From assembly GCA_963800805.1 (NCBI GenBank), contig CAWDCK010000014.1, positions 18,170 to 82,169 on the forward strand: a stretch of 64,000 nt of DNA, read 5' to 3'. This document shows, piece by piece, positions 9,917 to 29,284 of the stretch. Position numbers and translations under genes: made by a program. The notes under the pieces were generated by a model. That model had not been told where the DNA came from and did no database searches. It worked only from the letters and a program-made list of their open reading frames with translations. The DNA comes from an uncultured Armatimonadetes bacterium (GTDB lineage Bacteria; Armatimonadota; Fimbriimonadia; Fimbriimonadales; Fimbriimonadaceae). Numbering within the stretch: the stretch's first letter is position 1; every line of letters begins with the position of its first letter.

Positions 9917-10501
9917 CTATAGCCGAACCTGGCCACGAAGTTTTTCCAGAGTTTTTTCTCCAACTCCAGATACATAAGCCAAATCCTCTACCGATTGAAA
10001 TGGCCCATTTTCTTCTCGATACTTGATAATCGCTTCCGCCAAAACCGGACCAACATCCGGCAAACTCTCAAGCTCTTTCAATGATCCCAAGTTAATTGAA
10101 ACCGGACCCCCATTCTGAACCGGCGGACCACTCAAATCAAGACCACGGAATGGAACTGTAATCTGCATACCATCCTTAACCGGCGAGGCCAAATTAACCC
10201 CTAATTCATTAGCATCGGGCAGCATCCCTCCCGCTAAGTCAATGACATCCACTACTCTAAAGTCAGACCTAACCTTATAAACTCCGGGACGTTGAATGGC
10301 CCCGGCAATATAAACCTGGATCTCTTCCACCTCGTGCTGCGTTTCCGGAACTCTCGGTTGAGAACTTGGCTCTTCAACTTTCAAACCCGATCCTTGAGGC
10401 TGAATCTGTGAACCCCATGCGGCTAATCCAAGTAAAACTAAAAACCCAGCTCCAAAAACGCCAGCTTTTTGCTTCCCCGATAGTTGATCCCAAAGGCTCA
10501 T
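9917..10501 (-). CDS. comEA: ComEA family DNA-binding protein (TM + SLBB + HhH)
   Basis: VYIAGAIQRPGVY (SLBB), INLGSLKELESLPDVGPVLAEAII and VSGVGEKTLEKL (HhH). Confidence 0.88.
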   Translation of the reverse strand: MSLWDQLSGKQKAGVFGAGFLVLLGLAAWGSQIQPQGSGLKVEEPSSQPRVPETQHEVEEIQVYIAGAIQRPGVYKVRSDFRVVDVIDLAGGMLPDANELGVNLASPVKDGMQITVPFRGLDLSGPPVQNGGPVSINLGSLKELESLPDVGPVLAEAIIKYREENGPFQSVEDLAYVSGVGEKTLEKLRGQVRL

Positions 10502-16007: not shown

Positions 16008-16412
16008 ACCGTCAGAATAAAGAAGACGAACCAGTTTGAGCGCACTCGCGCCGATCATAGCCGAGAAACAGCGGAAGATTACGTTGAACTGATCGCTGAG
16101 TTAATCCTAGAACGTGGCGAAGCTCGGACAACAGATTTAGCCGATCGACTAGGAGTCAGTAAAGTCACGGTCACTAAAACTATTCAACGATTATCTCGGG
16201 AAGGACTCGTCAGCTCAGAGCCATATAGGAGCATCTTCTTAACACAAGAGGGTACGAATCTGGCTGAAAAAAGTCGACTACGCCATGAACTTGTACTCAG
16301 CTTTTTGTTAAAACTTGGAGTCAGCCAACAAACTGCAGAAATAGACTCGGAAGGAATCGAGCATCACGTAAGTGACGAAACTTTAAGGGCCATGAAAAAA
16401 TTCATTGGCTAA
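16008..16412 (+). CDS. mntR: Manganese-dependent transcriptional regulator MntR (DtxR family); start codon unresolved, missed by ORF track
   Basis: Frame reads KKTNQFERTRADHSRETAEDYVELIAELILERGEARTTDLADRLGVSKVTVTKTIQRL...RHELVLSFLLKLGVS...DSEGIEHHVSDETL, ending at TAA 16410-12. There is an in-frame TAA at 16005-07 upstream. Confidence 0.88.
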   Translation, partial: TVRIKKTNQFERTRADHSRETAEDYVELIAELILERGEARTTDLADRLGVSKVTVTKTIQRLSREGLVSSEPYRSIFLTQEGTNLAEKSRLRHELVLSFLLKLGVSQQTAEIDSEGIEHHVSDETLRAMKKFIG

Positions 16413-17215
16413 AGCACATCAATAATTCCACTAAAGACGCGCCTTGGCGATGATGAAACTTCAACTGGTAAGTCCCAGCGATCTATTACTATTCCTAAGG
16501 TTCCTCCTCCCGATGCCACTCTAATTGTTCCTGTCACTCCCGTTTTTCGAGAATGGACAACGGCAGAAGCAATTGCTCCAGTTCCACATCCAATGGTTTC
16601 TCCAACGCCGCGTTCCCAGATTCTGACTTTGATTTCCCGGTCATTCAAAACTTTTGTCCACATGACCGTCGTTTTCTGCGGAAAAATACTTGCATTTTCA
16701 ATCTGTCTACTTATTTTTTCAAACGCAGGTGATTCCGGCAATTCATCAACCATGACTACAAAGTGAGTACTGCCAGTGCTAAGGGCCGTTCCGGAGACAC
16801 CAAAAATCTCTTTATCTACAAACTCTACTGTTGAGCAAACTGGAACTAAAATCGGATCAAACTCCGCCGCCGGCATAATGGTAGATACATTTCCATTACT
16901 TATCTGAGTTCGAATCGTCCTTCCATTTTGGCGTTGCTCAAAATGAGATCCAACCCAACCTTCCGTGAAAGCGTACAGCCCAGAGCACCTCAGTCCATTT
17001 CCACAAAAGTCTTCCGATCCATCAGGATTAAAAAAACGGACTCTTACCGATCCTGATTCCGGAGCTACTACTATCAATCCATCATGACCAATTGAAAACC
17101 TTCTGTCGGCAGTGAATTGTGCGAAGTATTCTGGGCTCAAGCCCCCTAAATCAATCTCTCTCACCAGGACAAAATCATTACCAATAGTTTGAGTCTTTAC
17201 AAAAGGCACTATCAC
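16409..17215 (-). CDS. dapF: Diaminopimelate epimerase
   Basis: GNDF, FCGNGLRC and ERGVGETIGCGTGA motifs. The likely GTG start at 17215 forms a GTGA overlap with the upstream stop. Confidence 0.92.
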   Translation of the reverse strand: MIVPFVKTQTIGNDFVLVREIDLGGLSPEYFAQFTADRRFSIGHDGLIVVAPESGSVRVRFFNPDGSEDFCGNGLRCSGLYAFTEGWVGSHFEQRQNGRTIRTQISNGNVSTIMPAAEFDPILVPVCSTVEFVDKEIFGVSGTALSTGSTHFVVMVDELPESPAFEKISRQIENASIFPQKTTVMWTKVLNDREIKVRIWERGVGETIGCGTGAIASAVVHSRKTGVTGTIRVASGGGTLGIVIDRWDLPVEVSSSPRRVFSGIIDVL

Positions 17216-19167
17216 GGTGTTAAGTGCTCCAAACGATAACTTGTCAAGTCGAGAGTGGATCGCAACCATGTCCCATCAGGGCATACAAGTGCAAACCACC
17301 AGGCCGATGGTCGATAGCCAGCTTTTTTGAGTCCTTCTGTAGCCACAATTGCTTCCCTAATCAATCGCAATCGCATCATTTCTGCCTCTAAACCAATATC
17401 ACGTCGCCTTTCTCTGATTCGCACCATTTCATGCGATGAAACTAGCGCTTCTTGAGCCATCGCTTGGTTTTGATATTGCGCCCTCAATTCTGTCAGTTGC
17501 AAATCAACTTCGAGCAAATCAATGTCAAATTGTGCCCTTCTCGCTAACTCAGAATCATCTGGACTCTGTTCAAAAATCGCACTTCGCCAATGCTCTCCTT
17601 TCGCGTGCTGAAGCGCATTCCGCCTCGATCTCGCCGCTCTCATTTTCAGGACGGTCTTCTTTTTTCGTCGTTTACTTTCGGAAAGTTCAAAAGCCAAAGT
17701 CTCAAGAAAATCCTGCATTCCTTCGTATTCCTGGGCGAGACACTTCCATTGACCACCAACTTGATCTTGTAAGAATCTTAAAAGCTCAAGTGGTCTGTTC
17801 AAATCTTTGAGCGATTCTAGTTGCGTTGCCTGTGTCGCCGAGACTTCTCGCCATCGAACCGCAAAACTTGGTGCACTTAGCTCCAAAGTGCCAAAAGGAC
17901 GTTGTAAAGGTTCTGGCAACTTTAACCATGCGCAACAGTTTGTCATTGCATCCCAAGGCTCATATTGGACTCTCATGATCGGATTAAGCCTCATTTCAAA
18001 TCCCGCCGACACTAGATTTCTCGCCATTTCCCCAGACCGCCATACATAGGCGCTGGCGCCTTCATGAAAGACAAATACAAACTCTTTTGCCAGCATGAGG
18101 ATGAGAGTAATTGCCTTACCAACTAAAACGATTTCTGATCCAAATTTTCTTTCTAAAACTTCTGCCAATTCTAGAGCAGATTCCGGTCGCTTTTTATACG
18201 AAAATCCCACTGGCGATTTCGTCATCAACAAGCCGCCTTTGGATCCCAACCTTAACGTACCACGACCAATTCCAGGAATATAGACATCAAATGGCAACGA
18301 ACCAGCTCCAAACCTATCTAATGGATAAATATCCGAACCAGCAACACAACTGTCGTAAGCGGTCTCTGTCTGCATTCGTGTCTTGGGATCAAGAAATAAA
18401 TCAAGTATTTTGAATCGTTCAAGATGCGATGTCTTAGTATTAAACTTTAAAAGCTGAGTGGTAGCGGAAGTGTCAAAATCAAGTGATTCCCCAATCAACA
18501 TTTCAGATATGGGCCGTATAAGCTCTTGAAAGAAGCTGCCCAAACTATCGTCGTCAACACGATCCACAGCGTCACAAACCATCGCCATAAATCTGTCGGC
18601 TGCTAGCAATGAGTCTGCATGGTGCTCTCCAGAAACTAAACGCAAACTTTCATCTATAGCCCATTTCAAAGTGTCATAAATAACCGGAAAAAGCTTAGAA
18701 AGTTTCTTTTCAGCGGTTATTCGCGATTCTTTGGATAACGAAACAACTCCACGCCAACCCCAGGCTTCCGTAATTTCATCTAAAAAACCGGGTCGAAGAT
18801 GCTCAACTTTGCTAACCTTTCCTCCTGATGCCGTTAATGCTTCACGAGTTACAACAGTCTCCGAACCGAAAAGGCAGCTCATTTCGCCTGCCGCGCTCCA
18901 TAAGTTTTGGGTCGTCGTGTCGTTGTGAGGCAATGCCACAAATCCTTGCAAATCTCTCTTACTTGTGAATTTCGCGAAGTAATCCGTATCGTGTACTCCC
19001 GCTACGAATTTTCTCTGAGATCCTAGTTGCCGAATCCTTTGCAGAACTCCCGCTTTCATGGGCTCATCCCAAAAAACTGTCTGACCTAAGGCAAGTAGCG
19101 CAGCATCTGGAGCGATTCGATCCAGTTCTGCTAATACACCTTTTAAGCAATTACAGTCAGATTCCAT
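17212..19167 (-). CDS. Large hypothetical protein with C-terminal coiled coil (possible remote BshC-like)
   Basis: 651-aa open frame with natural composition, translationally coupled to dapF. The function is inferred only. Confidence 0.75.
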   Translation of the reverse strand: MESDCNCLKGVLAELDRIAPDAALLALGQTVFWDEPMKAGVLQRIRQLGSQRKFVAGVHDTDYFAKFTSKRDLQGFVALPHNDTTTQNLWSAAGEMSCLFGSETVVTREALTASGGKVSKVEHLRPGFLDEITEAWGWRGVVSLSKESRITAEKKLSKLFPVIYDTLKWAIDESLRLVSGEHHADSLLAADRFMAMVCDAVDRVDDDSLGSFFQELIRPISEMLIGESLDFDTSATTQLLKFNTKTSHLERFKILDLFLDPKTRMQTETAYDSCVAGSDIYPLDRFGAGSLPFDVYIPGIGRGTLRLGSKGGLLMTKSPVGFSYKKRPESALELAEVLERKFGSEIVLVGKAITLILMLAKEFVFVFHEGASAYVWRSGEMARNLVSAGFEMRLNPIMRVQYEPWDAMTNCCAWLKLPEPLQRPFGTLELSAPSFAVRWREVSATQATQLESLKDLNRPLELLRFLQDQVGGQWKCLAQEYEGMQDFLETLAFELSESKRRKKKTVLKMRAARSRRNALQHAKGEHWRSAIFEQSPDDSELARRAQFDIDLLEVDLQLTELRAQYQNQAMAQEALVSSHEMVRIRERRRDIGLEAEMMRLRLIREAIVATEGLKKAGYRPSAWWFALVCPDGTWLRSTLDLTSYRLEHLTP

Positions 19168-19340
19168 TTATACAGTTCAGATGCCTATTTCTATAATCTA
19201 AGGTCAACACTATCAGTTCCCCAAGGTTTCTACGTCAATTTTTCCAACTCTCGACCCCTCAACCCTGGTTTTTTTGCGAGGTTTAGCCAATATACAAATT
19301 ATAACGGGTTCTTTGGAGCCAATTCGGAGTTCTCGAGTAA

Positions 19341-19619
19341 ATGAGTCGAAGCCAAAACGCAGCAAACGGCAAAGTAGTCAGCATTAGTATGGCATCCCAA
19401 ATTACGGGTGTTGAAGTGCATACCCTTCGATATTGGGAAAAAGAGTTTGAGGGCTACTTGGATCCTATTCGAACCGCTGGGGGCCAGCGCAGATATCGAG
19501 CGGAGGACATTCAAACCGTTTATGAACTGAAGATTCTGCTACGAGAGCAAATGTTTTCGATTGCTGGCGCACGGAAAGTCTTGTCCGAACGTCAATCAAG
19601 TTTCCGTCGAGCGGCTTAA
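19341..19619 (+). CDS. MerR-family HTH transcriptional regulator (DNA-binding domain only)
   Basis: SISMASQITGVEVHTLRYWEKEF...RTAGGQRRYRAEDI motif. Confidence 0.88.
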   Translation: MSRSQNAANGKVVSISMASQITGVEVHTLRYWEKEFEGYLDPIRTAGGQRRYRAEDIQTVYELKILLREQMFSIAGARKVLSERQSSFRRAA

Positions 19620-19626
19620 AAATACG

Positions 19627-20499
19627 TCAAGGAAGTTCCGGCTCATCTGGTTTTTCAATTTGCGCAACAGATTGGAGCTTGTTTAGCTTTTCTGTAAAAA
19701 TTGCAAGTGGACGATCTTCCAGCCCGGCGCTTTCTCCTTTGATTAGCCTATTCAACGCTGCACATTCGGCTTGACTAAAACGAACACTTCCCAAAATATG
19801 CTCTTCAAAAGCTTCGTAAGCTGCTGGGGCTACGGCTTTGGCACATTTAGCCATGGCTTCGGCATAAACTCTGATTTCATATTGCGCATGGGAATCCATT
19901 CGCAATTGCAAAAACCGAAACAAATTATGCAAATCGCATTGCCAATACCATTCTGTATACAAGTTCAATGGTAAATTCGTGCGAGCAATTTCTCTTGCCA
20001 GTCCTTTTTCGAGCATGCCTTCATAGTTCGAATATAAATGCTTTTGGTCTGCCTTAATCTCTTCAATCAATTCACTAGCTAAGGATTGATCAAGGGATTC
20101 ATCGGACCGAGCTTGCTTATTGTCAGAACTTTGAAACCGCATCTGATTAATTTCCGGGACATAAAATTCATCCTGCATCACCGAATACCGACCGCTAATC
20201 TCATTCAATCGCGCCGTGCGATGTCGAACCCATTGCCGGGCAACAAAAATTGGCATCTTACAATGGAATGTCAAGACAACTTGTTCAAAAGGACTCGTAT
20301 GCTCGTTTCTTAACAGGTAGTGAATCAAACCACGATCTTGGCGGTAGCTTTTAGTTCCGGAACCATAACTGACTCTTGCGGATTGGACAATTCGCTGATC
20401 TCCGCCCATATAGTCAACTAATCGAACAAATCCTTTGTCAAGAACCTTAATTTCTTGATCTAACAATGCTTCTGCTTCAGGAACTATCGTGCGGCCCAT
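19627..20499 (-). CDS. thyX: FAD-dependent thymidylate synthase
   Basis: HTSPFE, ThyX motif RHRTARLNEISGRY, AREIAR and HAQYEIR. Confidence 0.96.
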   Translation of the reverse strand: MGRTIVPEAEALLDQEIKVLDKGFVRLVDYMGGDQRIVQSARVSYGSGTKSYRQDRGLIHYLLRNEHTSPFEQVVLTFHCKMPIFVARQWVRHRTARLNEISGRYSVMQDEFYVPEINQMRFQSSDNKQARSDESLDQSLASELIEEIKADQKHLYSNYEGMLEKGLAREIARTNLPLNLYTEWYWQCDLHNLFRFLQLRMDSHAQYEIRVYAEAMAKCAKAVAPAAYEAFEEHILGSVRFSQAECAALNRLIKGESAGLEDRPLAIFTEKLNKLQSVAQIEKPDEPELP

Positions 20500-20552
20500 T
20501 GTCTCTATTCTGACACGAAGATAACTATTGTTCCGTCTCTAAACCCAGACCG

Positions 20553-21008
20553 ATGAATACTGGCACCAAAATCGGAATAATCATTGCTTGTGTGTTTTGC
20601 GTATTGTGTTGTGGTGGAGGAATGCTTATGCTTGGCCAGATTACCGATGCCGTTGGGAAAAAAGAGAACGAAGCCGCCAAATTTGGTGATCGTGCTATCC
20701 TCCAAATCCTCACTAAATATCAAGCGCGCGAGATCGTGTCTTTAGCCTCTCCTGATTACAAAGCCGAATTTGACTCCTCAGAATTTCAGGTTTCTTTAGA
20801 TAAATACAAGAAAGCGCTGGGAGCATTTCTGAGTGGCAAAGGATCTGCAAGTCCCGTACAAATTCAAAGTGCCGACGGAAAATCAACTTTAAAGATGGAA
20901 TACGTTAATCTGGCTACGTTTGAAAAAGGCGATGCCAGAGTTAATATGGAACTTGTCATGATCGAAGATGTTTGGAAAATCAATCGATTCGGACTCGAAC
21001 CAAGATAA
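20553..21008 (+). CDS. Hypothetical membrane-anchored protein, NTF2-like fold
   Basis: N-terminal TM ending in CVLCCGGG, and C-terminal VNMELVMIEDVWKINRF typical of SnoaL/NTF2-like proteins (inference). Confidence 0.65.
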   Translation: MNTGTKIGIIIACVFCVLCCGGGMLMLGQITDAVGKKENEAAKFGDRAILQILTKYQAREIVSLASPDYKAEFDSSEFQVSLDKYKKALGAFLSGKGSASPVQIQSADGKSTLKMEYVNLATFEKGDARVNMELVMIEDVWKINRFGLEPR

Positions 21009-21009
21009 T

Positions 21010-21603
21010 CTATTGAGGAATCATCTTTAGAAAATTGCCAATCATTTCCATTCCGCCCTCAGAAAGGATTGATTCCGGATGAAACTGAACGCCTTCAATC
21101 ATTTTTGACTGATGTCGTAATCCCATGATCTCTTGATCATCAGTACTGCGAGCGGTGATCAAGTACTCCGAAGGCAGACTCGATTCTTCAATAACTAATG
21201 AATGGTAGCGGATTGATTTCAAGGGCGAATGAAGCCCTTCAAACACGCCTTTACTATCGTGCTTAACCAAACTGCTTTTTCCATGCATCATTGTTCTGGC
21301 CCGGCGAATCTCGCCACCGGCCTCAAATCCCATCGCTTCCATTCCTAAACAGACTCCAAAAATGGGAATGGCCAAAAAAGGACTCTCCGATCCTCTCGCT
21401 GCTTTTAAGATATCTAGGCAGACTCCACTTTCTTCCGGAGTACATGGCCCAGGAGAAAGAAGGATTCCGCTAGCACGAAGTTGTACGACATCATTCAAAT
21501 CTAATTGATCGTTTCGAAAAACTTTTACTTGTGCCCCATTTCGACCAAGATATTGAACCAAATTGTAAGTAAAACTGTCGAAATTATCAATAACTAAGAT
21601 CAC
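21010..21603 (-). CDS. trpG: Anthranilate/aminodeoxychorismate synthase glutamine amidotransferase component II (TrpG/PabA)
   Basis: IDNFDSFTYNL, SPGPCTP, GVCLG, RYHSL and QFHPES motifs. trpG and pabA cannot be distinguished here. Confidence 0.88.
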   Translation of the reverse strand: MILVIDNFDSFTYNLVQYLGRNGAQVKVFRNDQLDLNDVVQLRASGILLSPGPCTPEESGVCLDILKAARGSESPFLAIPIFGVCLGMEAMGFEAGGEIRRARTMMHGKSSLVKHDSKGVFEGLHSPLKSIRYHSLVIEESSLPSEYLITARSTDDQEIMGLRHQSKMIEGVQFHPESILSEGGMEMIGNFLKMIPQ

Positions 21604-21733
21604 ACAACCACCTATTACAAAAAGATTTGCTTGCCCAAATTGTTAAAAAACAGTATGAACCATGTTCAATCATGTACAATCTCAAGCGTTCATCAAAGTG
21701 ATGGGCAAATAAAGTTCACGGAGGAACAAATAT

Positions 21734-21823
21734 ATGGGCAAAGGATTGTCATTACTCGACGTACTCATGGTACTGTCTGCTGCGATTTTACTCTACGCGG
21801 TTATCATTCCATTTTTCAAATAG
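21734..21823 (+). CDS. 29-aa prepilin-like microprotein (class III signal + hydrophobic helix only)
   Basis: SD GGAGG at 21720-24, 9 nt before ATG. Translation MGKG|LSLLDVLMVLSAAILLYAVIIPFFK has an acidic residue at +5 and Pro at +22. Confidence 0.65.
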   Translation: MGKGLSLLDVLMVLSAAILLYAVIIPFFK

Positions 21824-22297
21824 AAAGTTGCTGGGTTCAAACGTCCTAAGTTTCTGATTGTGGTCCTAATTACATCCCGAGCCTTAGCCTGTTCTTAACA
21901 TTGCGAGGGAAATTGAGTTCGCAGCTGGTGCCGCACAAATACCGCAACGAAGGTGATTTAAAAGGGGCGAGATCTAGCGCGATTACAACAAGCAGTTCAT
22001 TGCGCGAGAAGTTAGATTCTTGCGCTTTTTTTTGTCAGTTTAATGATGGAAGATTTGGCTCTAGAGGAACAAAACCATTCTGATTAGAAAGGAGTAATGC
22101 AACCCAAATCGAATAGTCAAAATTTAATTGATACTCTGCCTAAATCTCCTGATCTTTTTTTTTTTAACTCTCGTGCAGAAAGACGACTTCCCACGAAAGG
22201 TTGTGGGGAAAAGTAGAAAGCAAGAGAAAAACACCAACATCTAGCGTTTGAAGTAGGTTGCTGACAAATTGAGTTCAAAACCAAATTCTGAGTGAAC

Positions 22298-23416
22298 TCA
22301 TTTAATCTTCAGAACAGGAGCATAGAGAAATTGACGAATACCTTTTTCGTTCAGACCACCAAAGTCCCACACCAGTCGAAACTCCGGACTAAAGCGAACC
22401 TGATATTGACTTAACTCTTTTCCAGTCAATGGCATCCCGGGCGTCTCAGTTTTTAAAAATTTAAATTGATCTGCTCGGTAGTACTTTCCAAAAACGTCCG
22501 ATTCAAACTCATCACCAAAAACATACGCAACATCCGATTCAATTCCGTCTTTCCCAAGTCGCTCCATGAGAGAACTGGCGATATCAGTTTTCCCAGGATT
22601 TTCAATTACTGAAATGCCAATGCCAGGATCAGCTACAGCTTCAACTATTTCTAAAAGATCTTGAGGATTAAACGCTCCAGAAACAAAAACTTTAGAATTC
22701 AGCAGTCTGGGATCTATTTTTATTGCCTTTTGATTCAAAGCACCAGCGCGCTTTACAAACTCTTCAAGCTCAATTATCTTGCCTTGTCCATAGTCAATCG
22801 AACCCTCCCTTAAATTATTGATCGGACCCATTATCTGAGATGAATTGGCATTTTGTGAGTATGAATCAACAGTTTTTTTAGGCGTTCGACCATCGACCCA
22901 TGTTTCACAAATCTTGGATCCATTTAGATCGGTCACATTCGCTCCAAATGTAACTGATAAAAATAACTTTTGGGGGCTATTTCCTGCGATGGCTTTATCC
23001 CAACCTCCAGGAGGCATATTTGCCATTCTCAATATTCCAGTACGGAGTTCTGAGTCCAGATCATTCAATGAAATCCCTTCTGACTTCATCCTATACAAAT
23101 CTTCGCTCCTCATTTTCTGGAGCCAACCGATGGTTTTTTCCCGATCCAGCTCTGTCCGAATTGGACTCAAATCAGGCATTAAAACATAATGACCACTGAC
23201 TGCTTTGATTTGACATTGACTACTACTTGCCAATACTTCCAAGCCATACATTCCCATCGGCGTGCTGGGAAACTTTCGAATTGGACACTTCTCGGGCATT
23301 ACAAAAACAATGCTGGCTCTTTCACGCTGGCAATAAGAAGCAAGAAGTTGTTCTTGTGATTGTTCAGAAGCCGTTAACGACTCTATCAACAATGCCGGAA
23401 TCAAAAAGTTAATCAT
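22298..23416 (-). CDS. Hypothetical exported protein
   Basis: 372-aa open frame with a hydrophobic N-terminus; ATG immediately follows the upstream TAA. Confidence 0.7.
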   Translation of the reverse strand: MINFLIPALLIESLTASEQSQEQLLASYCQRERASIVFVMPEKCPIRKFPSTPMGMYGLEVLASSSQCQIKAVSGHYVLMPDLSPIRTELDREKTIGWLQKMRSEDLYRMKSEGISLNDLDSELRTGILRMANMPPGGWDKAIAGNSPQKLFLSVTFGANVTDLNGSKICETWVDGRTPKKTVDSYSQNANSSQIMGPINNLREGSIDYGQGKIIELEEFVKRAGALNQKAIKIDPRLLNSKVFVSGAFNPQDLLEIVEAVADPGIGISVIENPGKTDIASSLMERLGKDGIESDVAYVFGDEFESDVFGKYYRADQFKFLKTETPGMPLTGKELSQYQVRFSPEFRLVWDFGGLNEKGIRQFLYAPVLKIK

Positions 23417-23962
23417 TTAATCACCGGCTCCGCCCGATACCGTACAAGGGGTTTTGGACTGTGAAATAGTTTCGTATCCAACGGCAGTTAAAGCGGGCAA
23501 GTCACATTGTCCATTTATCGTGCAAGATACTTCAGGATTCTGCCAATGCCACTTAAGTTTTGCACCGCCAATACAGGAATTCCCATCAACAGGAGCATAA
23601 ACATTAAGAATGATAGGATTACTGGTTGGTGGTGCAGGAGCTCTCATAACACACTTACCATTTATTCCACAAGTCCCTGTATATCTAATCTCAGGCACTG
23701 GAATCGTAAAGTGAGCATATCCACCATTTGGATCACAAATACACACTGGGCCCTCAAAAATTATTGTTTGCTCACCAATATAGAGCCCATCTTCTACATA
23801 AGTTGTTATTGCTGAAACAGATCGTACAGTTGCTTGTACGATAATTCCTGTCGGTGGTGGGTCATCAAGGCCCGATGTAGCTACACCAGCAAACCCAAGT
23901 GCGCATCCAAGTACGACCGAACAAATGCCCAAAATACAACGCTGTATCATCCCTTTTGACAT
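23417..23962 (-). CDS. Hypothetical Cys-rich secreted protein
   Basis: Likely ATG at 23962 or 23950, N-terminal signal/TM helix, and 8 Cys in the mature part including two CxINGxC motifs. Confidence 0.7.
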   Translation of the reverse strand: MSKGMIQRCILGICSVVLGCALGFAGVATSGLDDPPPTGIIVQATVRSVSAITTYVEDGLYIGEQTIIFEGPVCICDPNGGYAHFTIPVPEIRYTGTCGINGKCVMRAPAPPTSNPIILNVYAPVDGNSCIGGAKLKWHWQNPEVSCTINGQCDLPALTAVGYETISQSKTPCTVSGGAGD

Positions 23963-24059
23963 ATAAGTCAAGCGAAAGTATAACTTTGGCGCAAGTAAGA
24001 CCCAGGACAAACGCGCGTGTAACTAACAATCACCCACAAGGTACTAACACTAAAGGATA

Positions 24060-25880
24060 CTAATCTGAAGATCGTCGTTCGGCAACTCTACGCTCACTAT
24101 GATCCAAAACCTTTTTACGGAATCTTAAAAGCTTCGGTGTACATTCTAAAAGTTCATCATCTCGCAACCAACTCAGTGCTTGCTCCAAACTAAACTCTTT
24201 GTGAGCCTTCAAAGCAGTAGTGTCATCGCTAGTTGCAGACCTCATATTGTTTGCTGCTTTAGATTTCGTCACGTTTACAATCATGTCGTCATCCCTTGCG
24301 TTCTGGCCAATAATCATTCCGGGATAGACATCTGTAGAAACTGGATAGAAAAATATTCCCCGTTCCATCACGTCTTCGTATGCGTAACGAGTAATTTTTC
24401 CAGCATCTTTAGAAATTAGACTTCCGTTGACTCGACTTTGAATCGAGCCCCGATACTTTTCATAACCTTCGAAAACCGTTGACATAATGCCAGTTCCTCG
24501 AGTTAAAGTTAAATATGTTGACCGGAAACCAATGATTCCACGCGTCGGAATAGAGGCCGTTAAATGACTTCGACCATTTCCGAGTGTTCCCATGTCTTGA
24601 ATTTCCCCTTTCCTTCGGCTCAATTCTTCCATGACTGAACCAAGAGCTTCATCCTCAAATTCACAAGTTAATTGTTCAATTGGCTCAAGGCGTCCAAGTT
24701 CATTTTCTCGGTAGATAACTTGAGGACGTGCAATAGCCATTTCAAAGCCTTCTCGACGCATAGTTTCGATCAAAACGGATAATTGCATTTCACCACGGGC
24801 AGCAATTCGCACAGTATCAGCCGGCGCAGTCTTATCAATCGTCAAACTGACGCTAACTGTTTCTTCTTTCTCCATTCGCTCCCGAATTTTTTGAATAGTT
24901 AAGAATTTCCCACCATCTTTGCCGCTCAAAGGCGAAGTGTTTGCATAGAAATTCATCGTCAACGTGCTAGGCTCAACTTCGATTCTTGGCATTGGCTCAA
25001 CAAATTGAGCGTCGCATACAGTATCACCAATCAATACGTCACTGATTCCCGCAATCATAACAATTTCGCCGGCTTCTCCGACTTCAATTTCTTCGAGCTT
25101 TAATCCAACATATCGCCAAACTTTTGTAACGTTAAACCCAATATGCTTGCCATCGACGTTAACCTGAGTCATGCGATCGCCGGCCCGAATTCTGCCCCGC
25201 AATAACTTACCGCCAAACATTTTCCCCAAGTAATCGCTATGGTCGAGATTATTGACCTGCAGTTTTGATGGACCTTCTTCCTGAACTTTAGGTGGAGGAA
25301 TCTCTCGGACAATGGCTTCAAATAAGTGGCGCATATCAGAATCGGTATCTTCCGGATTCAACCGAGCAAATCCCCCTGCTCCACTTGTGTAAATCACAGG
25401 AAAATCTAAATCTTCTTCTTCTGCACCTAAGTCGATAAATAAGTCAATCGTCTTGTCATATGCGTCTGCCGGACGGGCACCTTCTCGATCAATTTTATTA
25501 ACACAAACAATGACCTTACAGCCATTGTCCAATGCCTTTTTCAAGACAAACCTAGTCTGCGGCATTGGCCCTTCGTTGGCATCAACAATAAGCAAAACGC
25601 CGTCAACCATGCTCATGACCCGCTCAACTTCTCCACCAAAATCGGCGTGACCAGGAGTGTCAACTATGTTAATCTTTGTTCCACTGTAGTTGCAACTTGC
25701 AACTTTGGAAAGAATCGTAATTCCTCTTTCGCGCTCAAGATCATTACTGTCCATCATTCGATCGCTAACAGCTTCATTCTCGCGAAACATTCCCGATTGT
25801 TTAAAGATCGCATCGACCAACGTTGTCTTTCCATGATCAACGTGAGCGATAATTCCAAGGTTACGAATGTTTTCAGACAT
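24060..25880 (-). CDS. typA: Translational GTPase TypA/BipA
   Basis: IAHVDHGKTT, ERGITI, DTPGHADFGGEVER and NKID motifs. The likely start is ATG 25880 (MSENIRN). Confidence 0.97.
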   Translation of the reverse strand: MSENIRNLGIIAHVDHGKTTLVDAIFKQSGMFRENEAVSDRMMDSNDLERERGITILSKVASCNYSGTKINIVDTPGHADFGGEVERVMSMVDGVLLIVDANEGPMPQTRFVLKKALDNGCKVIVCVNKIDREGARPADAYDKTIDLFIDLGAEEEDLDFPVIYTSGAGGFARLNPEDTDSDMRHLFEAIVREIPPPKVQEEGPSKLQVNNLDHSDYLGKMFGGKLLRGRIRAGDRMTQVNVDGKHIGFNVTKVWRYVGLKLEEIEVGEAGEIVMIAGISDVLIGDTVCDAQFVEPMPRIEVEPSTLTMNFYANTSPLSGKDGGKFLTIQKIRERMEKEETVSVSLTIDKTAPADTVRIAARGEMQLSVLIETMRREGFEMAIARPQVIYRENELGRLEPIEQLTCEFEDEALGSVMEELSRRKGEIQDMGTLGNGRSHLTASIPTRGIIGFRSTYLTLTRGTGIMSTVFEGYEKYRGSIQSRVNGSLISKDAGKITRYAYEDVMERGIFFYPVSTDVYPGMIIGQNARDDDMIVNVTKSKAANNMRSATSDDTTALKAHKEFSLEQALSWLRDDELLECTPKLLRFRKKVLDHSERRVAERRSSD

Positions 25881-25944
25881 GACGGGAAGCCGTAAGGTAC
25901 CGCTTTTGAGTCTTTTCCAAATCAGACCAGACCCGACTACAGGT

Positions 25945-27036
25945 TCAAACTTGAGATAATCGAGCCTTTCGAGCACGAAAGAACTTCAATGCCAAGCCAC
26001 CGAAGAATAGAATTCCACCTCCAATCCAAAGTAATTTCAAACCGTTTTCTTGTGGATTTTCCAAAGAAGTTGAAACGCGGAATGGAGGAACCGGAACGTA
26101 ATCATCAAAAAAGTCCTTATCAGTATCTGGATGCTGACCCATTGAAAGCTTTTGAGAAACAAAATCGGTGTAATGAGCACGAAACTCATCGCCGTTTTTG
26201 CGCATTTCTCCAAAGTTTTTCAAATTACTCTCTTTAAACTTATCCTCTAACATGTAAGAAAAAGTAAATCGGTTTAAGAATGCATCTTCGAATCGAGAAC
26301 GTTGGCCTTCAGATTCGAGTTCTGAGATTCTGAGGTCAATCAAATGAGCTGTCTGCCCGGCATCTAGATCTAATGAAATTTTCAACAAATGGAACATATC
26401 AATCGAGTTCCAGCCGTTGCCAATTGCCATGATTCCTAAGACTCCCTCTCGAAAAGCTTTTCGATCTTCATCCGTTTGCAAAAATTCTTCAAAAAGGTCT
26501 GAATTGGGTTCTAATAATTCCATAAGGACGGCAATTTGAACCCACTCACGGCCAAAATGAGCATCGGGATTGATTTCCACCGCTAACTTAAGATCATCAA
26601 TTCCTCGTTGCACATTTTTGCGGAAATCTTCACCATTTGCTGCCAATCCCATATGAGCGTAAAACGTTCCGCGATTGGCATACAATCGATATTCAGCTTC
26701 GGCTCTTGCTTTTTCATCTAGTTTCAATTTGGAAAGAGCAATTTTCTTTTTAACCATCAAATCAATTGCATCGGCATGTCGATTCAACTTGTCGCATGCA
26801 ACGGCGGCATCATCGAACTCGCCAAGACTCCAATCCGATTCCGGTTTCAGTTTTAGCCGTTCCAGCCGTATTTCGTAGTACTTATCCGGGGGCCTCTCAA
26901 ATCGCCCCGATACTGCATCTTGGATTCCTGGCAACCCTTTGAGCTCAAATTTAAGCGTATCAATATCCCAAGCGCAACCGAAAACCTGAATTGATCCAAT
27001 TAAAAGGAATAGTAGGCAAGTTAAAATTCTCCACAT
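25945..27036 (-). CDS. Hypothetical exported TPR-like protein (CAWDxDTL N-terminus, C-terminal TM anchor)
   Basis: Signal peptide, helical repeats (YANRGTFYAH...AVEINPDAHFGRE), and a C-terminal TM followed by a basic tail. Confidence 0.7.
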   Translation of the reverse strand: MWRILTCLLFLLIGSIQVFGCAWDIDTLKFELKGLPGIQDAVSGRFERPPDKYYEIRLERLKLKPESDWSLGEFDDAAVACDKLNRHADAIDLMVKKKIALSKLKLDEKARAEAEYRLYANRGTFYAHMGLAANGEDFRKNVQRGIDDLKLAVEINPDAHFGREWVQIAVLMELLEPNSDLFEEFLQTDEDRKAFREGVLGIMAIGNGWNSIDMFHLLKISLDLDAGQTAHLIDLRISELESEGQRSRFEDAFLNRFTFSYMLEDKFKESNLKNFGEMRKNGDEFRAHYTDFVSQKLSMGQHPDTDKDFFDDYVPVPPFRVSTSLENPQENGLKLLWIGGGILFFGGLALKFFRARKARLSQV

Positions 27037-27084
27037 AACGATTGTTCTCAATTTCGCTTGACGTGAGAAAGAAAAGTTTCTAAA

Positions 27085-27531
27085 TTAAAAACGAGGAAGA
27101 TAAGGATAAACCTCGCGGCTCAAGGTATTTGGCAAAACTTTCCACTTTCCATCAATTTTTACAAGGTTAACCTGAAAGTTCTCTTCATATGGACTCATCG
27201 AATCAAGCCGAAGTACTTTCATCCGAACGCCTACTTGGTTTTTGGATTGAGGAAGTACGGACTCAGTCTTCCAAGCAAAACTATAATATTTACTGCGCTC
27301 AGTTGAAGTTTTCCATGCTTTCTCCAATTCAGCGACATCCATGCCTTTCACGCTTGAAAGCTCTGCCAGAGTTTTGGAATCGCCTTTTGCTAAAGCAGAC
27401 ATAAATGTGCCGGCCGTGACCTGGGGAGTATCACCACCAATCATCACCAAACCAACAACAACAACCATTCCTCCAAGGCCCGCTGGAATCATCCAGTGTG
27501 TTTTTCCACTTTGCTTCATTTTCGAATTCAT
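27085..27531 (-). CDS. Hypothetical membrane-anchored NTF2-like (DUF4878-like) protein
   Basis: TM, then PQVTAGTFMSALAKGD...VNLVKIDGKWKV pattern. Confidence 0.65.
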   Translation of the reverse strand: MNSKMKQSGKTHWMIPAGLGGMVVVVGLVMIGGDTPQVTAGTFMSALAKGDSKTLAELSSVKGMDVAELEKAWKTSTERSKYYSFAWKTESVLPQSKNQVGVRMKVLRLDSMSPYEENFQVNLVKIDGKWKVLPNTLSREVYPYLPRF

Positions 27532-27534
27532 ATC

Positions 27535-27954
27535 CTAACTAAAATCATTCATCTGAGCTTGAAGTTTCAAACTCGAACCAGCATCTATAATCCATCGATT
27601 TTCTGGCTTTCTGACAACTAAACGTATTGCTCCTACTATTCTGTTCCCAGAATGGACATAAACAACATCAACATAAGACAAGCGTCCTTCGGTCGTGACT
27701 CTCCCTAACTGAATCTGCACACCCCGTGCCAATGCATCAGAAATCTGTAATCTCAAAAATCGACCAGTTTCAAGTTCGCCGTCAACCATCAAATTCAAAA
27801 CTTCCGCTGAATCACCTTCTAAAATAGCTTGATGAAATCGACGGACTGTAGTCTCCGGCCCCCTATTGGCAGAAAGTGCAAACACGCTCAAAGTCAATGC
27901 TGAGAGTGCTATTGCCGAAAATACAGATTGCGAAACGAAATGTGTTCCCCGCAC
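27535..27954 (-). CDS. Hypothetical exported NTF2-like (DUF4878-like) protein
   Basis: Signal/TM, then PETTVRRFHQAILEGD...LVVRKPENRWII pattern. Confidence 0.65.
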   Translation of the reverse strand: MRGTHFVSQSVFSAIALSALTLSVFALSANRGPETTVRRFHQAILEGDSAEVLNLMVDGELETGRFLRLQISDALARGVQIQLGRVTTEGRLSYVDVVYVHSGNRIVGAIRLVVRKPENRWIIDAGSSLKLQAQMNDFS

Positions 27955-28036
27955 GAATCATAGGATACTAAGTTTTACTGAACGAAAGGCACCTGGTTCC
28001 GTCTAAACTTGCCATATAATTCTATATAGAACCTTA

Positions 28037-29284
28037 ATGAGTGATTTTAAAATGAAAGAAAGCATTACAAGAAGACAGCTAATTGGTAAGGGTGGGGTTC
28101 TTGCCGTTGGGCTGATGGCTCCTGCTTGGTTAGCAAATGTAGCTCGTGCTGATATCGCCAAACTTGGTTCTGGAAAGTCGTTAGATCCTGATAATGTCCT
28201 CATCGTTTGCCAACTGTCAGGCGGAAACGATGGGCTCAATACTCTTGTTCCTTTCTCAAATCCAGATTACTACAAAGCCAGACCTTCAATCGGAATTCCA
28301 AAAGAAACTGTTCTCGAATTTGAAAGCGGTATGGGTTTCCATCCCGAAATGGCAGGATTAGCCCAACTTTACAAAGAAGGAAAAGTTGCCGTTATTCAAG
28401 GAGTCGGATACCCTCGCCCTAACCAAAGCCACTTTAAGTCAATGGACATCTGGCAGTCGGCAAGTCCCGATGGTGTCATGAAATATGGTTGGGTAGGTAG
28501 AGCTATGGACATATCTGCTGCCGGAGGTCCGCTCAGCCCAATTGCTGGAATTGGACTCAGTACGGAAAAGCCATTAGCATTAACGGCAAAGCAAGCAAGT
28601 ATTCCTTGCTTTGCTAGTCTCAACGATGTGCTAGGAATGGTAGGCGATCCAGAAACGGAAAAAATGCTCAGAGAAATCCAAGGTATGGATGCGATGGAAG
28701 GAACTGCGGTTCGCACCATTCAAAAAGCCAACAACACTGCCTTAGATGCTATGAATTTGCTTAAGAAGCAATTAGATGGATACAAGAGCAATCAAACTTA
28801 TGGCAACGATCGGTTCGGTCAAGGCTTCCGACAAATAGCACAACTCGTCGCTACTAGCCCCCAAACGCGAGTAATTTATTTTAGTGCCGGAGGATTCGAC
28901 ACCCACTCTGGTCAGGCAAATTCCCATGCTGCCCTGCTCAAAGGTTTCAGTGACGCTGTCCTCAATCTTCAAAAGGAGCTTGAAGCCATTGGAAAAGCCG
29001 ACAAAGTCACAATCCTTGTCTTTTCTGAATTTGGTCGAAGAACTTATGAAAATGGAAGTGCCGGTACAGATCACGGCAAGGCTGGCCCCATGTTCATGAT
29101 TGGGAAAAACGTTAAAGGTGGACTATATGGCCCTAAACCGGATTTCCAATCGTTGGACAACGGTGACCTGAAATGGGAGATTGATTTCCGCCAAGTCTAT
29201 GCGTCTGCACTGGATGACTGGCTCGATACCGATTCAAAATCTGTCCTCGGCGAATCGTTTACTAAACTAAATTTGATTAAGTAA
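28037..29284 (+). CDS. DUF1501 domain protein, probable Tat substrate
   Basis: ITRRQLI twin-arginine leader; LSGGNDGLN, GGFDTH, SEFGRR and GTDHG motifs. Confidence 0.88.
   Translation: MSDFKMKESITRRQLIGKGGVLAVGLMAPAWLANVARADIAKLGSGKSLDPDNVLIVCQLSGGNDGLNTLVPFSNPDYYKARPSIGIPKETVLEFESGMGFHPEMAGLAQLYKEGKVAVIQGVGYPRPNQSHFKSMDIWQSASPDGVMKYGWVGRAMDISAAGGPLSPIAGIGLSTEKPLALTAKQASIPCFASLNDVLGMVGDPETEKMLREIQGMDAMEGTAVRTIQKANNTALDAMNLLKKQLDGYKSNQTYGNDRFGQGFRQIAQLVATSPQTRVIYFSAGGFDTHSGQANSHAALLKGFSDAVLNLQKELEAIGKADKVTILVFSEFGRRTYENGSAGTDHGKAGPMFMIGKNVKGGLYGPKPDFQSLDNGDLKWEIDFRQVYASALDDWLDTDSKSVLGESFTKLNLIK

What the first reader, a model, noticed from the sequence alone, without database searches (positions are those of the whole stretch)
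21720..21823. 29-aa microprotein that is nothing but a type IV prepilin leader and helix
Seen in sequence: a strong GGAGG 9 nt before ATG 21734, then MGKG|LSLLDVLMVLSAAILLYAVIIPFFK-stop. Established knowledge: prepilins have a short basic leader ending in Gly, a hydrophobic +1 residue, Glu at +5, a hydrophobic stretch of about 20 residues, and often Pro at +22 (e.g. G|FTLIELLVVIAIIAILAAILFP). This ORF has G|L, Asp at +5 and Pro exactly at +22, but stops 3 residues later, so it has no globular head. Inference: it may be a minimal pilin, or a decoy or regulatory substrate of prepilin peptidase or the pilus assembly machinery. The overlapping 72-aa ORF in the track (21631-21849) hides it.
Basis: partly seen in the sequence, partly recalled or inferred. 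Interest (0 to 1): 0.7.

Follow-up and report, generated by a model that had tools for sequence, protein, structure and literature searches.

The report
Conserved pilin-stem-like membrane microprotein gene
A real, conserved 29-codon gene in an uncultured groundwater Armatimonadota bacterium encodes a single membrane helix that resembles the buried stem of a type IV pilin, but it lacks the conserved cleavage site a true pilin needs, so it is most likely an uncleaved small membrane protein of unknown partner.

Summary
The sORF is exactly as described: GGAGG 21720-21724, ATG 21734, stop ending at 21823, encoding MGKGLSLLDVLMVLSAAILLYAVIIPFFK. It is a real gene. Seven distinct 29-33-aa homologues exist in a Fimbriimonadales-related clade (Armatimonadota). 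Where context is known, they sit in the same slot: divergent from trpG and upstream of a conserved sRNA-like element. Selection is purifying (dN/dS about 0.1, and only synonymous changes between close strains). The stop always falls 2-3 residues after an invariant Pro-Phe, so this is not a decayed pilin gene.

The pilin resemblance is measurable but marginal. The family profile's best non-family matches are prepilin N-termini in register. This holds among 6,842 ORFs from the fetched loci and in the PDB (Geobacter PilA-N, E 0.02-0.04). PF07963 and TIGR02532 do not match.

The residue at -1 is G,G,E,G,R,R,Q, the leader is only 4-7 residues, +5 is always Asp, and no pilus genes lie in the 64 kb. 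A conserved role as a prepilin-peptidase substrate is therefore unlikely.

Best reading: an uncleaved N-in single-pass microprotein acting by intramembrane binding, possibly to type IV filament components. It belongs to an undescribed family. Interest is moderate.

The parts
21673..21680 (+). Extended -10-like box TGTACAAT, the likely promoter of the sORF (predicted start near 21687, 5' UTR about 47 nt)
   Evidence: Read from the sequence. The block TTCAATCATGTACAATCTCA is identical in L163-L165, while the surrounding 130 nt are only 53% identical. The promoter assignment is an inference.
21720..21724 (+). Shine-Dalgarno GGAGG, 9 nt before the start codon
   Evidence: GTTCACGGAGGAACAAA is conserved in L163. 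GGAGG is absent upstream of all 59 long ORFs in the window.
21734..21823 (+). Microprotein gene, 29 codons plus TAG: MGKGLSLLDVLMVLSAAILLYAVIIPFFK. It has a short basic N-terminus, one transmembrane helix with invariant Asp9, invariant Pro26-Phe27 and a C-terminal Lys.
   Evidence: There are seven homologues with invariant D, P and F. dN/dS is about 0.1. It is called as a 29-aa gene on Logan contig L161. The L082-type homologue is in JGI/IMG as 'hypothetical protein'.
21824..21893 (+). Spacer between the sORF stop and the sRNA box. No terminator-like site was found, so read-through into the sRNA is plausible. The region is hypervariable between strains and carries a 24-nt insertion in L162.
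   Evidence: The spacer is 69, 71, 66 and 40 nt in four lineages.
21894..21902 (+). Conserved box CTTAACATT (consensus TTCTTAACAWT), the putative promoter element of the downstream sRNA
   Evidence: It is invariant in alignment A3 across five lineages. It is one of only 7 YTTAACAWT sites in the 64 kb.
21908..22033 (+). Candidate sRNA of about 125 nt: variable body, invariant GATTACAACAAGCAGTTCAT (21981-22000), hairpin 22002-22025 and T8 run 22026-22033. This is probably also the 3' end of the sORF transcript.
   Evidence: Terminator-like site. Conservation in L163, L166/167, L176, L082/L172 and L004. RNAalifold predicts only the terminator helix, with changes on both sides of 3 of 6 pairs. Strain variants turn the G22006-T22021 wobble pair into A-T or G-C. 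There is no Rfam match.
21639..21647 (-). A second copy of the TTTAACAAT box, oriented towards trpG and 36 nt before its start
   Evidence: The same box (TCTTAACAATTTGG) sits on the sORF strand 20-35 nt before the sORF start in L082/L172 and L004.
21010..21603 (-). trpG/pabA-type glutamine amidotransferase, the conserved divergent neighbour (context only, not shown to be functionally linked)
   Evidence: Pfam GATase E 1e-52. Synteny in L004, L082/L172, L163 and L176.

Best explanation
The sORF 21734-21823 is a real protein-coding gene of an undescribed microprotein family (29-33 aa). The family is confined, as far as seen, to a clade related to Fimbriimonadales (Armatimonadota).

Shown here: it has its own conserved -10-like box and, in the window and its 71%-trpG relative L163, a strong SD that is unusual for this genome. 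It is under purifying selection. It keeps a fixed architecture: a 4-7-residue basic N-terminus, a helix of about 21 hydrophobic residues with invariant Asp at helix position 5, invariant Pro-Phe at 22-23, and 2-3 more residues ending in a basic residue. It also keeps a fixed address, divergent from trpG and 40-71 nt upstream of a conserved sRNA-like element whose terminator it probably shares.

Inferred: the peptide inserts N-in/C-out like a prepilin stem but is not processed by prepilin peptidase. It stays in the membrane as a bitopic helix. It works as characterised small membrane proteins do, by binding a larger membrane protein or complex within the bilayer through the conserved N-terminal half of the helix (Leu3, Asp5) and the Pro-Phe end.

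Its sequence is closest to the alpha1N stem of type IV pilins. It may descend from such a stem, which makes type IV filament components the most obvious candidate partner, but this is not demonstrated.
For: - Real gene: homologues; dN/dS 0.10-0.11 and synonymous-only differences between close strains; CDS better conserved than both flanks; stop position conserved; the only relatives among 1.84 billion representatives at E<=0.001 are two 29-aa proteins.
- Address: the order trpG, sORF, sRNA, typA is seen in the window, L176, L082/L172 and, with a 479-aa gene inserted, L004. The short L163 contig shows trpG, sORF and sRNA.
- No terminator-like site lies between the sORF and the sRNA.
- Pilin-stem likeness: the family HMM ranks true prepilin N-termini 1st, 2nd, 3rd and 7th among 6,842 ORFs of at least 80 aa, against 400 other ORFs with a transmembrane segment (Mann-Whitney p = 6e-4). 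In the PDB profile search, 4 of 5 hits are pilins aligned in register from -2 to +22, and the top two are Geobacter PilA-N at E 0.024 and 0.04. The weak NCBIfam hits are all to pilin or pseudopilin N-termini.
- Not processed as a family trait: -1 = G,G,E,G,R,R,Q, while the review states that Gly-1 is absolutely critical.
Against: - There is no direct evidence of transcription or translation. No RNA runs hold this sequence.
- No partner has been identified, and no membrane-complex gene is adjacent.
- The pilin likeness rests on marginal E-values (0.02-0.3) and could be convergence of short N-in helices.
- Four of the seven members, including the window's, do have Gly at -1, and three of them pass the PilFind rule. 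Cleavage in that subclade is therefore not excluded.
- The family is patchy. It is absent next to trpG in L166/167 (which keep the sRNA), in F. ginsengisoli within 10 kb either side of trpG, and in several other relatives.
Confidence: 0.55

Rival explanations
1. It is a pilin-stem mimic. The uncleaved or poorly cleaved helix docks where prepilin alpha1N stems dock (prepilin peptidase, the PilC/GspF platform, PilN/O, or other pilin stems in the membrane pool). By doing so it tunes or blocks assembly of one of the type IV filament systems in these bacteria.
For: - The likeness to prepilin N-termini is in register and includes an acidic +5 and Pro +22.
- Conservation is concentrated in helix positions 1-11 plus Pro22, as in pilins.
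- Relatives carry pilin-like genes, and in L002 the slot divergent from trpG holds a prepilin peptidase followed by two N_methyl genes.
- Some pilin-like proteins in the fetched loci also lack Gly at -1, for example KRR|FTLIELL in L057.
Against: - No pilus, T2SS or competence-pilus assembly gene lies in the 64-kb window. Nor do the genes called on the 12-kb loci L172 and L176 carry pilus-related Pfam families.
- E-values are marginal.
- Asp rather than Glu is invariant.
- No co-occurrence analysis was possible.
Confidence: 0.2
2. One reading: it is a true minimal pilin or a genuine prepilin-peptidase substrate. It would be cleaved after Gly4, N-methylated, and either incorporated into a filament or used to titrate the peptidase.
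For: - The window peptide and two relatives pass the PilFind rule [GAS]-x4-[DE] followed by 14 uncharged residues.
- Their -1 residue is Gly, +1 is hydrophobic, and Pro is at +22.
- Headless short pilins exist (Geobacter PilA-N), and they are the best PDB matches.
Against: - Gly-1 is replaced by Glu in P0122, which is otherwise identical to L163's peptide, and by Arg, Arg and Gln in three other lineages. Processing therefore cannot be the selected function.
- The 4-residue leader is shorter than any described (6-26 residues).
- A mature product of 25 residues would lack alpha1C and any head.
- PF07963 and TIGR02532 do not match, although PF07963 detects pilin-like genes of an Armatimonadota relative.
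- There is no linkage to pilus genes.
Confidence: 0.1
3. It is a type I toxin-like membrane peptide. Its synthesis would be held in check by the adjacent conserved sRNA, and overproduction would depolarise the membrane.
For: - It is a 29-aa hydrophobic peptide with charged ends.
- Its SD is unusually strong for this genome.
- A conserved sRNA-like gene lies within 70 nt in four lineages.
Against: - It is single-copy and syntenic across deep divergence (trpG 53-71% identical), and it is under purifying selection. This is unlike the patchy, multicopy type I loci.
- No paralogue is present in the window.
- The sRNA is on the same strand, not antisense.
- The predicted sRNA-mRNA duplex energy is no better than for shuffled sRNAs in five lineages (z from -1.5 to +1.6).
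- The sRNA persists without the sORF in L166/167 and is 1.6 kb away in L004.
Confidence: 0.08
4. The peptide itself does not matter. The ORF would be a chance reading frame, or a leader whose translation only regulates trpG or the downstream sRNA.
For: - It is short, and it lies in a regulatory intergenic region next to trpG.
- It may share a transcript with the sRNA.
Against: - Amino-acid-level conservation comes with many synonymous codon changes (for example Leu TTG/CTT, Lys AAA/AAG, Pro CCA/CCC) and dN/dS of about 0.1.
- Asp, Pro and Phe are invariant at fixed spacing.
- There are no Trp codons, which argues against a trp leader.
- The sRNA has its own conserved promoter-like box and can exist apart from the sORF.
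Confidence: 0.04

Closest known systems
Class III signal peptide / alpha1N stem of type IV pilins and pseudopilins (Pfam PF07963 N_methyl, TIGR02532)
   Same: A short basic N-terminus is followed by about 21 hydrophobic residues, with an acidic residue at position 5 and Pro at 22. The motif K-x-[LMF]-[ST]-L-[LV]-D-[VIL]-L parallels K-G-F-T-L-I-E-L-L. Prepilin N-termini are the best non-family matches, aligned in register.
   Different: There is no conserved Gly at -1. The leader is 4-7 residues rather than 6-26. Asp replaces Glu. The family models do not match. There is no alpha1C and no globular head. No pilus genes are nearby.
Geobacter PilA-N ('Geopilin domain 1 protein', PDB 9egp, 7tgg, 2m7g/6vk9)
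   Same: It is a naturally headless, very short pilin and gives the best PDB hits to the family profile (E 0.024-0.04).
   Different: The deposited chains are 61-90 residues, about two to three times the 29-33 aa seen here. The aligned N-terminus is a canonical KG|FTLIELL. From my own knowledge, PilA-N also has a separately encoded partner, PilA-C. The family here stops 2-3 residues after Pro22-Phe23 and is followed by an sRNA, not a protein gene.
Characterised bacterial small membrane proteins (KdpF 29 aa, AcrZ, MgrB, MgtS, PmrR, CydX); comparison from my own knowledge
   Same: They are under 50 aa with a single transmembrane helix, are encoded by independently translated sORFs, and act by binding larger membrane proteins.
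   Different: There is no sequence similarity to any of them (no Pfam or NCBIfam family hit). The gene is not in an operon with a candidate partner.
Dual-function sRNA loci such as SgrS/SgrT; comparison from my own knowledge
   Same: A 5' sORF is followed on the same strand by a conserved single-stranded motif and a terminator. Some relatives keep the RNA without the sORF (L166/167).
   Different: The sRNA part has its own conserved promoter-like box. In L004 it is separated from the sORF by a 479-aa gene. Co-transcription was not shown.
Type I toxins (TisB 29 aa, Fst, Ibs, ZorO); comparison from my own knowledge
   Same: Similar size, hydrophobicity, and a neighbouring small RNA.
   Different: There is no antisense arrangement and no complementarity. 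The gene is single-copy, syntenic and under purifying selection.

Membership tests
Type IV prepilin (class III signal peptide) | The hydrophilic leader ends in a conserved Gly at -1, the residue critical for prepilin-peptidase cleavage (PMC4471445) | tested here: not met
   The window has Gly4, but across the family -1 is G,G,E,G,R,R,Q.
Type IV prepilin (class III signal peptide) | Leader peptide of 6-26 residues | tested here: not met
   The leader is 4 residues in six members and 7 in L004.
Type IV prepilin (class III signal peptide) | Glu at +5 interrupting the hydrophobic tract | tested here: inconclusive
   Asp is invariant and Glu never occurs. PilFind accepts D or E, whereas the review describes Glu5 as almost invariable.
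Type IV prepilin (class III signal peptide) | About 21 predominantly hydrophobic residues after the cleavage site, often with Pro22 | tested here: met
   Positions +1 to +21 are hydrophobic apart from Asp5, and Pro22-Phe23 is invariant.
Type IV prepilin (class III signal peptide) | Match to PF07963 (N_methyl) or TIGR02532 | tested here: not met
   No match at E<=10 for any of the 7 members. As a positive control, PF07963 hits two pilin-like genes of L002 at 32 and 21 bits. The only other hits are sub-threshold matches to GspG, ComGE, ComGC and GspI N-termini.
Type IV prepilin (class III signal peptide) | PilFind rule: [GAS]-x4-[DE] plus 14 uncharged residues, with one transmembrane segment near the N-terminus | tested here: inconclusive
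   I re-implemented the rule from PMC3244431. The window, L163 and P0123 pass; P0122, L176, L082 and L004 fail.
Type IV prepilin (class III signal peptide) | Alpha1C plus a globular head, or at least a soluble C-terminal part | tested here: not met
   The protein ends 2-3 residues after Pro22-Phe23 in all members. No downstream coding remnant exists; that region is a conserved non-coding element.
Type IV prepilin (class III signal peptide) | Genomic or functional association with prepilin peptidase, an assembly ATPase and a platform protein | tested here: not met
   No such genes were found among the window ORFs scanned, and no canonical prepilin motif occurs in the 64 kb. The rest of the genome was not available.
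Type IV prepilin (class III signal peptide) | Actual cleavage and N-methylation | not testable with these tools
   This needs biochemistry or peptidomics.
Bacterial small single-pass membrane proteins (under 50 aa) | An independently translated sORF encoding one transmembrane helix, conserved at the protein level | tested here: met
   The SD and start codon are, the hydrophobic core, and dN/dS of about 0.1. Translation itself was not observed.
Type I toxin-antitoxin | An antisense or complementary sRNA that pairs with the toxin mRNA | tested here: not met
   The neighbouring sRNA is on the same strand. Duplex energies are no better than for shuffled sequences in 5 lineages.
Type I toxin-antitoxin | Toxicity on overexpression | not testable with these tools
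   This needs an expression experiment.

The most novel reading that the evidence does not exclude
This would be the first 'stem-only' type IV pilin derivative: a 25-29-residue alpha1N look-alike kept as an independent gene. It would sit in the inner membrane among prepilins and control a type IV filament machine, either as a decoy for the peptidase or platform or as a chain-terminating subunit. It might be produced from the same transcript as a conserved regulatory sRNA.
Probability: 0.2. Interest if true: 0.75.

Novelty: new member of a known kind. Interest (0 to 1): 0.4.

Why it matters
If the conservative reading holds, this adds one more conserved but unannotated small membrane protein family, in a poorly studied and largely uncultured phylum. 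It also illustrates how gene callers report a spurious overlapping 72-aa ORF instead of the real 29-aa one.

If the pilin-stem reading holds, it would show that the alpha1N helix alone can be a selectable functional unit. It would also give a natural tool for probing how pilin stems are recognised in the membrane by the peptidase, the platform and other pilins.

The adjacent conserved sRNA candidate, which has no Rfam family, and the shared TTAACAAT box are separate leads for gene regulation in Armatimonadota.

Tried and rejected
- Direct protein-database search with the microprotein: the tool refuses queries under 40 aa. A concatenation of six family members found nothing at E<=10, so that index probably does not serve such short proteins.
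- The exhaustive phmmer search worked with a 30-residue window translation and gave only two relatives.
- Rfam: nothing for the region or for three related loci. No tRNA or tmRNA is nearby.
- RNA evidence: the only runs holding the sequence are groundwater metagenomes, some of unknown library type, kept as contigs. There is no transcript information.
- Within-species comparison (L162 and runs X1-X3): 0 changes in the sORF. This is uninformative because trpG also differs at only 3 of 594 sites.
- Antisense promoter-like site at 21819-21790: rejected. Its hexamers are forced by the FFK and LLY codons, it is absent from L176, and promoter-like hits are not above the shuffled expectation.
- trp leader peptide idea: rejected, because there are no Trp codons and the peptide is under protein-level selection.
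- sRNA as an antitoxin pairing with the sORF mRNA: no complementarity beyond shuffled controls.
- A hidden ORF inside the sRNA: no frame is conserved (reading).
- TTAACAWT as a general promoter motif: not enriched in the window (7 sites against 3.9 expected).
- Decayed pilin gene: rejected, because the stop position is conserved and no full-length relatives exist.
- More relatives via trpG look-ups (P0006, P0007, P0008, P0010, P0033, P0104): these loci have no sORF next to trpG.

Full report
**1. The observation**

GGAGG lies at 21720-21724, followed by a 9-nt spacer, ATG at 21734 and TAG at 21821-21823. The ORF encodes MGKGLSLLDVLMVLSAAILLYAVIIPFFK.

It sits in a 694-nt gap between two minus-strand genes. 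One is a trpG/pabA-type glutamine amidotransferase at 21010-21603 (Pfam GATase, E 1e-52). The other is a 372-aa protein with no Pfam match at 22298-23416.

On the sORF strand, the only terminator-like site in the gap is a 9-bp hairpin followed by T8 at 22002-22033. There is no Rfam match, tRNA or tmRNA here.

**2. The organism**

trpG's closest relatives in one-genome-per-species GTDB contigs are Fimbriimonadales/Fimbriimonadaceae and other Armatimonadota MAGs, at 55-63% identity. Metagenome contigs give nothing closer than 58%. The large protein collection gives one relative at 71% and many at 58-65%, several named Armatimonadota or Fimbriimonadaceae.

Runs that hold the window sequence are groundwater metagenomes. 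The window therefore comes from an uncultured, deep-branching relative of Fimbriimonadia with about 42% G+C.

**3. The sORF is a conserved gene**

A tblastn search of the fetched loci found peptides of the same type in the same slot, divergent from trpG and about 90-130 nt from its start.

| Source | trpG identity to window | Peptide |
|---|---|---|
| L004 (Fimbriimonadaceae ACE_ARM8 chromosome) | 58% | MQPRLKQLTLVDILLGLSIISMIIVLVIPFIVH |
| L082 and L172-L174 | 53% | MANRFRLLDLIMITTLIACLTAIAYPFIAR |
| L163-L165 | 71% | MGKGMSLLDVLMVLSAVILLYAVVVPFFK |
| L176 | 62% | MDKRLTLLDALMLLSGVTLVIAVLIPFFR |

An exhaustive phmmer search of 1.84 billion representatives returned only two proteins at E<=0.001, and both are exactly 29 aa. 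They are MGKEMSLLDVLMVLSAVILLYAVVVPFFK and MGKGLSILDVLMGLSALMLLVAVLLPFFR. The L082 form is in JGI/IMG as 'hypothetical protein' on four contigs. The window form was called as a 29-aa gene on a Logan contig.

In all seven distinct sequences, Asp (+5), Pro (+22) and Phe (+23) are invariant at fixed spacing, and the stop falls 2-3 residues after Pro-Phe.

Selection acts on the protein.
- Window vs L163: 10 synonymous differences over 20.2 sites and 5 non-synonymous over 57.8 sites, dN/dS 0.11.
- L163 vs L176: dN/dS 0.10.
- L172, L082 and L174 differ by 2-3 synonymous changes only.
- The CDS is 82% identical between window and L163, against 53% upstream and 62% downstream.

The overlapping 72-aa ORF has stops in L163 and is spurious.

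The SD is notable. None of 59 long ORFs in the window has GGAGG within 20 nt of its longest-ORF start, and only 12 have any 4-mer core. GGAGG is retained in L163 and AAGGA in L176.

A conserved TGTACAAT box at 21673-21680, identical in L163, is the likely promoter. That assignment is an inference.

**4. It is not a remnant of a pilin gene**

The stop position is conserved across lineages whose trpG proteins are only 53-71% identical to the window's. No full-length protein shares this N-terminus in 1.84 billion representatives. The DNA downstream is a conserved non-coding element, not decayed coding sequence.

**5. How pilin-like is it?**

Curated models say no. PF07963 and TIGR02532 match none of the seven members even at E<=10. 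PF07963 does match two pilin-like genes in the Armatimonadota locus L002, so the model works in this phylum.

The resemblance is nevertheless specific rather than a generic transmembrane-helix likeness.
- An HMM of the seven sequences was run against all ORFs of at least 80 aa from about 1.35 Mb of fetched DNA (6,842 ORFs). It places genuine prepilin N-termini at ranks 1, 2, 3 and 7, aligned over HMM positions 3-28. The 400 other ORFs with a transmembrane segment scored lower (Mann-Whitney p = 6e-4).
- The same profile against the 177,635 distinct PDB sequences gives five hits at E<=10, and four of them are type IV pilins in register. The top two are Geobacter PilA-N at E 0.024 and 0.04, aligned as K-G-F-T-L-I-E-L-L...I-P.
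- The weak NCBIfam hits (E 0.015-0.6) are all to N-termini of GspG, ComGE, ComGC, GspI and a pilin-like cassette protein.

**6. Why it is probably not a prepilin-peptidase substrate**

Berry & Pelicic define the class III signal peptide as follows: a 6-26-residue leader that in bacteria invariably ends in Gly, then 21 hydrophobic residues with Glu5. They state that the Gly is 'absolutely critical' for processing (PMC4471445).

This family does not fit that definition.
- The -1 residue is G,G,E,G,R,R,Q. P0122 is identical to L163's peptide except for this G-to-E change.
- The leader is 4-7 residues.
- +5 is always Asp.
- The PilFind rule, re-implemented from PMC3244431, passes only the window, L163 and P0123.
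- No pilus, T2SS or competence-pilus assembly gene was found among the window ORFs scanned. A ComEA-like gene at 9917-10501 is the only loosely related item.
- No canonical prepilin motif occurs anywhere in the window.

Two caveats apply. Pilin-like proteins without Gly at -1 do occur in the fetched loci, for example KRR|FTLIELL in L057 and RRA|FTMIELL in L002. In L002 the slot divergent from trpG is occupied by a prepilin peptidase gene followed by two N_methyl genes. That is an intriguing coincidence but an uninterpretable one.

**7. Context: a conserved sRNA-like element**

Starting 40-71 nt after the sORF stop in four lineages, on the same strand, there is a conserved element with three parts:
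- a box TTCTTAACAWT (window 21894-21902);
- a variable body of about 80-100 nt;
- an invariant motif GAT(C/T)ACAACAAGCAGTTC (21981-22000) directly before a hairpin and T-run.

RNAalifold supports only the terminator helix, with changes on both sides in 3 of its 6 pairs. Strain variants convert the G22006-T22021 wobble pair to A-T or G-C.

The element is present without the sORF in L166/167. In L004 it is separated from the sORF by an inserted 479-aa gene. It is therefore an independent unit, probably a trans-acting sRNA with a single-stranded seed. The sORF mRNA most likely uses its terminator, because no terminator-like site lies between them.

The predicted pairing between this RNA and the sORF mRNA is no better than for shuffled controls. 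That argues against a type I toxin-antitoxin relationship.

**8. Mechanism**

Shown: this is an independently expressed-looking, selected gene for a single-helix peptide, with a conserved intramembrane Asp near the N-terminal end and a conserved Pro-Phe at the other end.

Inferred: it has an N-in/C-out topology, with basic residues before the helix as in prepilins. It is not cleaved. It acts by helix-helix binding to a larger membrane protein.

I put 0.55 on this conservative reading. The alternatives are:

| Reading | Confidence |
|---|---|
| Partner is specifically type IV filament machinery (stem mimic) | 0.20 |
| True pilin or prepilin-peptidase substrate | 0.10 |
| Type I toxin-like peptide | 0.08 |
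| Peptide irrelevant | 0.04 |

**9. Novelty**

No Pfam or NCBIfam family matches the peptide. The two literature searches aimed at pilin-like or prepilin-peptidase-related small proteins returned nothing relevant.

This is a new family within the known class of small bacterial membrane proteins. Its sequence likeness to pilin stems is unusual and testable. Interest is moderate at 0.4. It would rise to about 0.75 if the stem-mimic reading were confirmed.

Noticed in passing
window 21894-22033 (+); also L163, L166/L167, L176, L082/L172/L173, L004 (about 4075-4235, -): A conserved sRNA-like gene with no Rfam family. It has a TTCTTAACAWT box, a variable body, an invariant GAT(C/T)ACAACAAGCAGTTC motif and an intrinsic terminator. 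It lies between trpG and typA across lineages, and in L166/167 it is present without the sORF.
   Followed up: partly
window 21639-21647 (-) and 21894-21902 (+); L082 and L004 upstream of their sORFs: The near-palindromic box YTTAACAWT(TTGG) recurs before trpG, before the sRNA and, in other lineages, before the sORF. It is not enriched window-wide (7 sites against 3.9 expected). It may therefore be a specific operator or promoter element shared by this small gene group rather than a general promoter motif.
   Followed up: partly
whole window (59 long ORFs): This genome seems to use Shine-Dalgarno sequences rarely. None of 59 long ORFs has GGAGG, and 12 of 59 have any 4-mer core, within 20 nt of the longest-ORF start. 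True start sites were not curated.
   Followed up: partly
window 21824-21945 compared with L162 and runs X1-X3: The spacer after the sORF stop is hypervariable between strains. It shows about 18% substitutions plus a 24-nt insertion in L162 that repeats the adjacent AAAATTGCTTGGGTTCAAA, whereas trpG differs by 0.5% and the sORF not at all.
   Followed up: no
window 22298-24010 (-): Two genes without any Pfam match (372 aa and 197 aa) sit between the sRNA and typA. They are absent from the syntenic loci L172, L176 and L166, which suggests a lineage-specific insertion.
   Followed up: no
L002 1954-5947 (-), Fimbriimonadaceae MAG ATF_19: In this relative the slot divergent from trpG holds a prepilin peptidase gene (A24_N_bact + Peptidase_A24). 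It is followed by two N_methyl pilin-like genes, one of which has Ala at -1.
   Followed up: partly
window 16409-21603 and 24060-29284: There is a conserved gene order across distant Fimbriimonadia-like genomes (L166, L172, L176): dapF, a ~650-aa protein with no Pfam match, merR, thyX, a ~150-aa protein, trpG, then typA, two small proteins and a DUF1501 gene. The ~650-aa protein is conserved but uncharacterised.
   Followed up: no
L174 526-651 (-): On this short JGI contig, trpG next to the sORF appears truncated to a 41-aa N-terminal piece, followed directly by a phosphoribosyltransferase gene. This is either a deletion or an assembly chimera.
   Followed up: no
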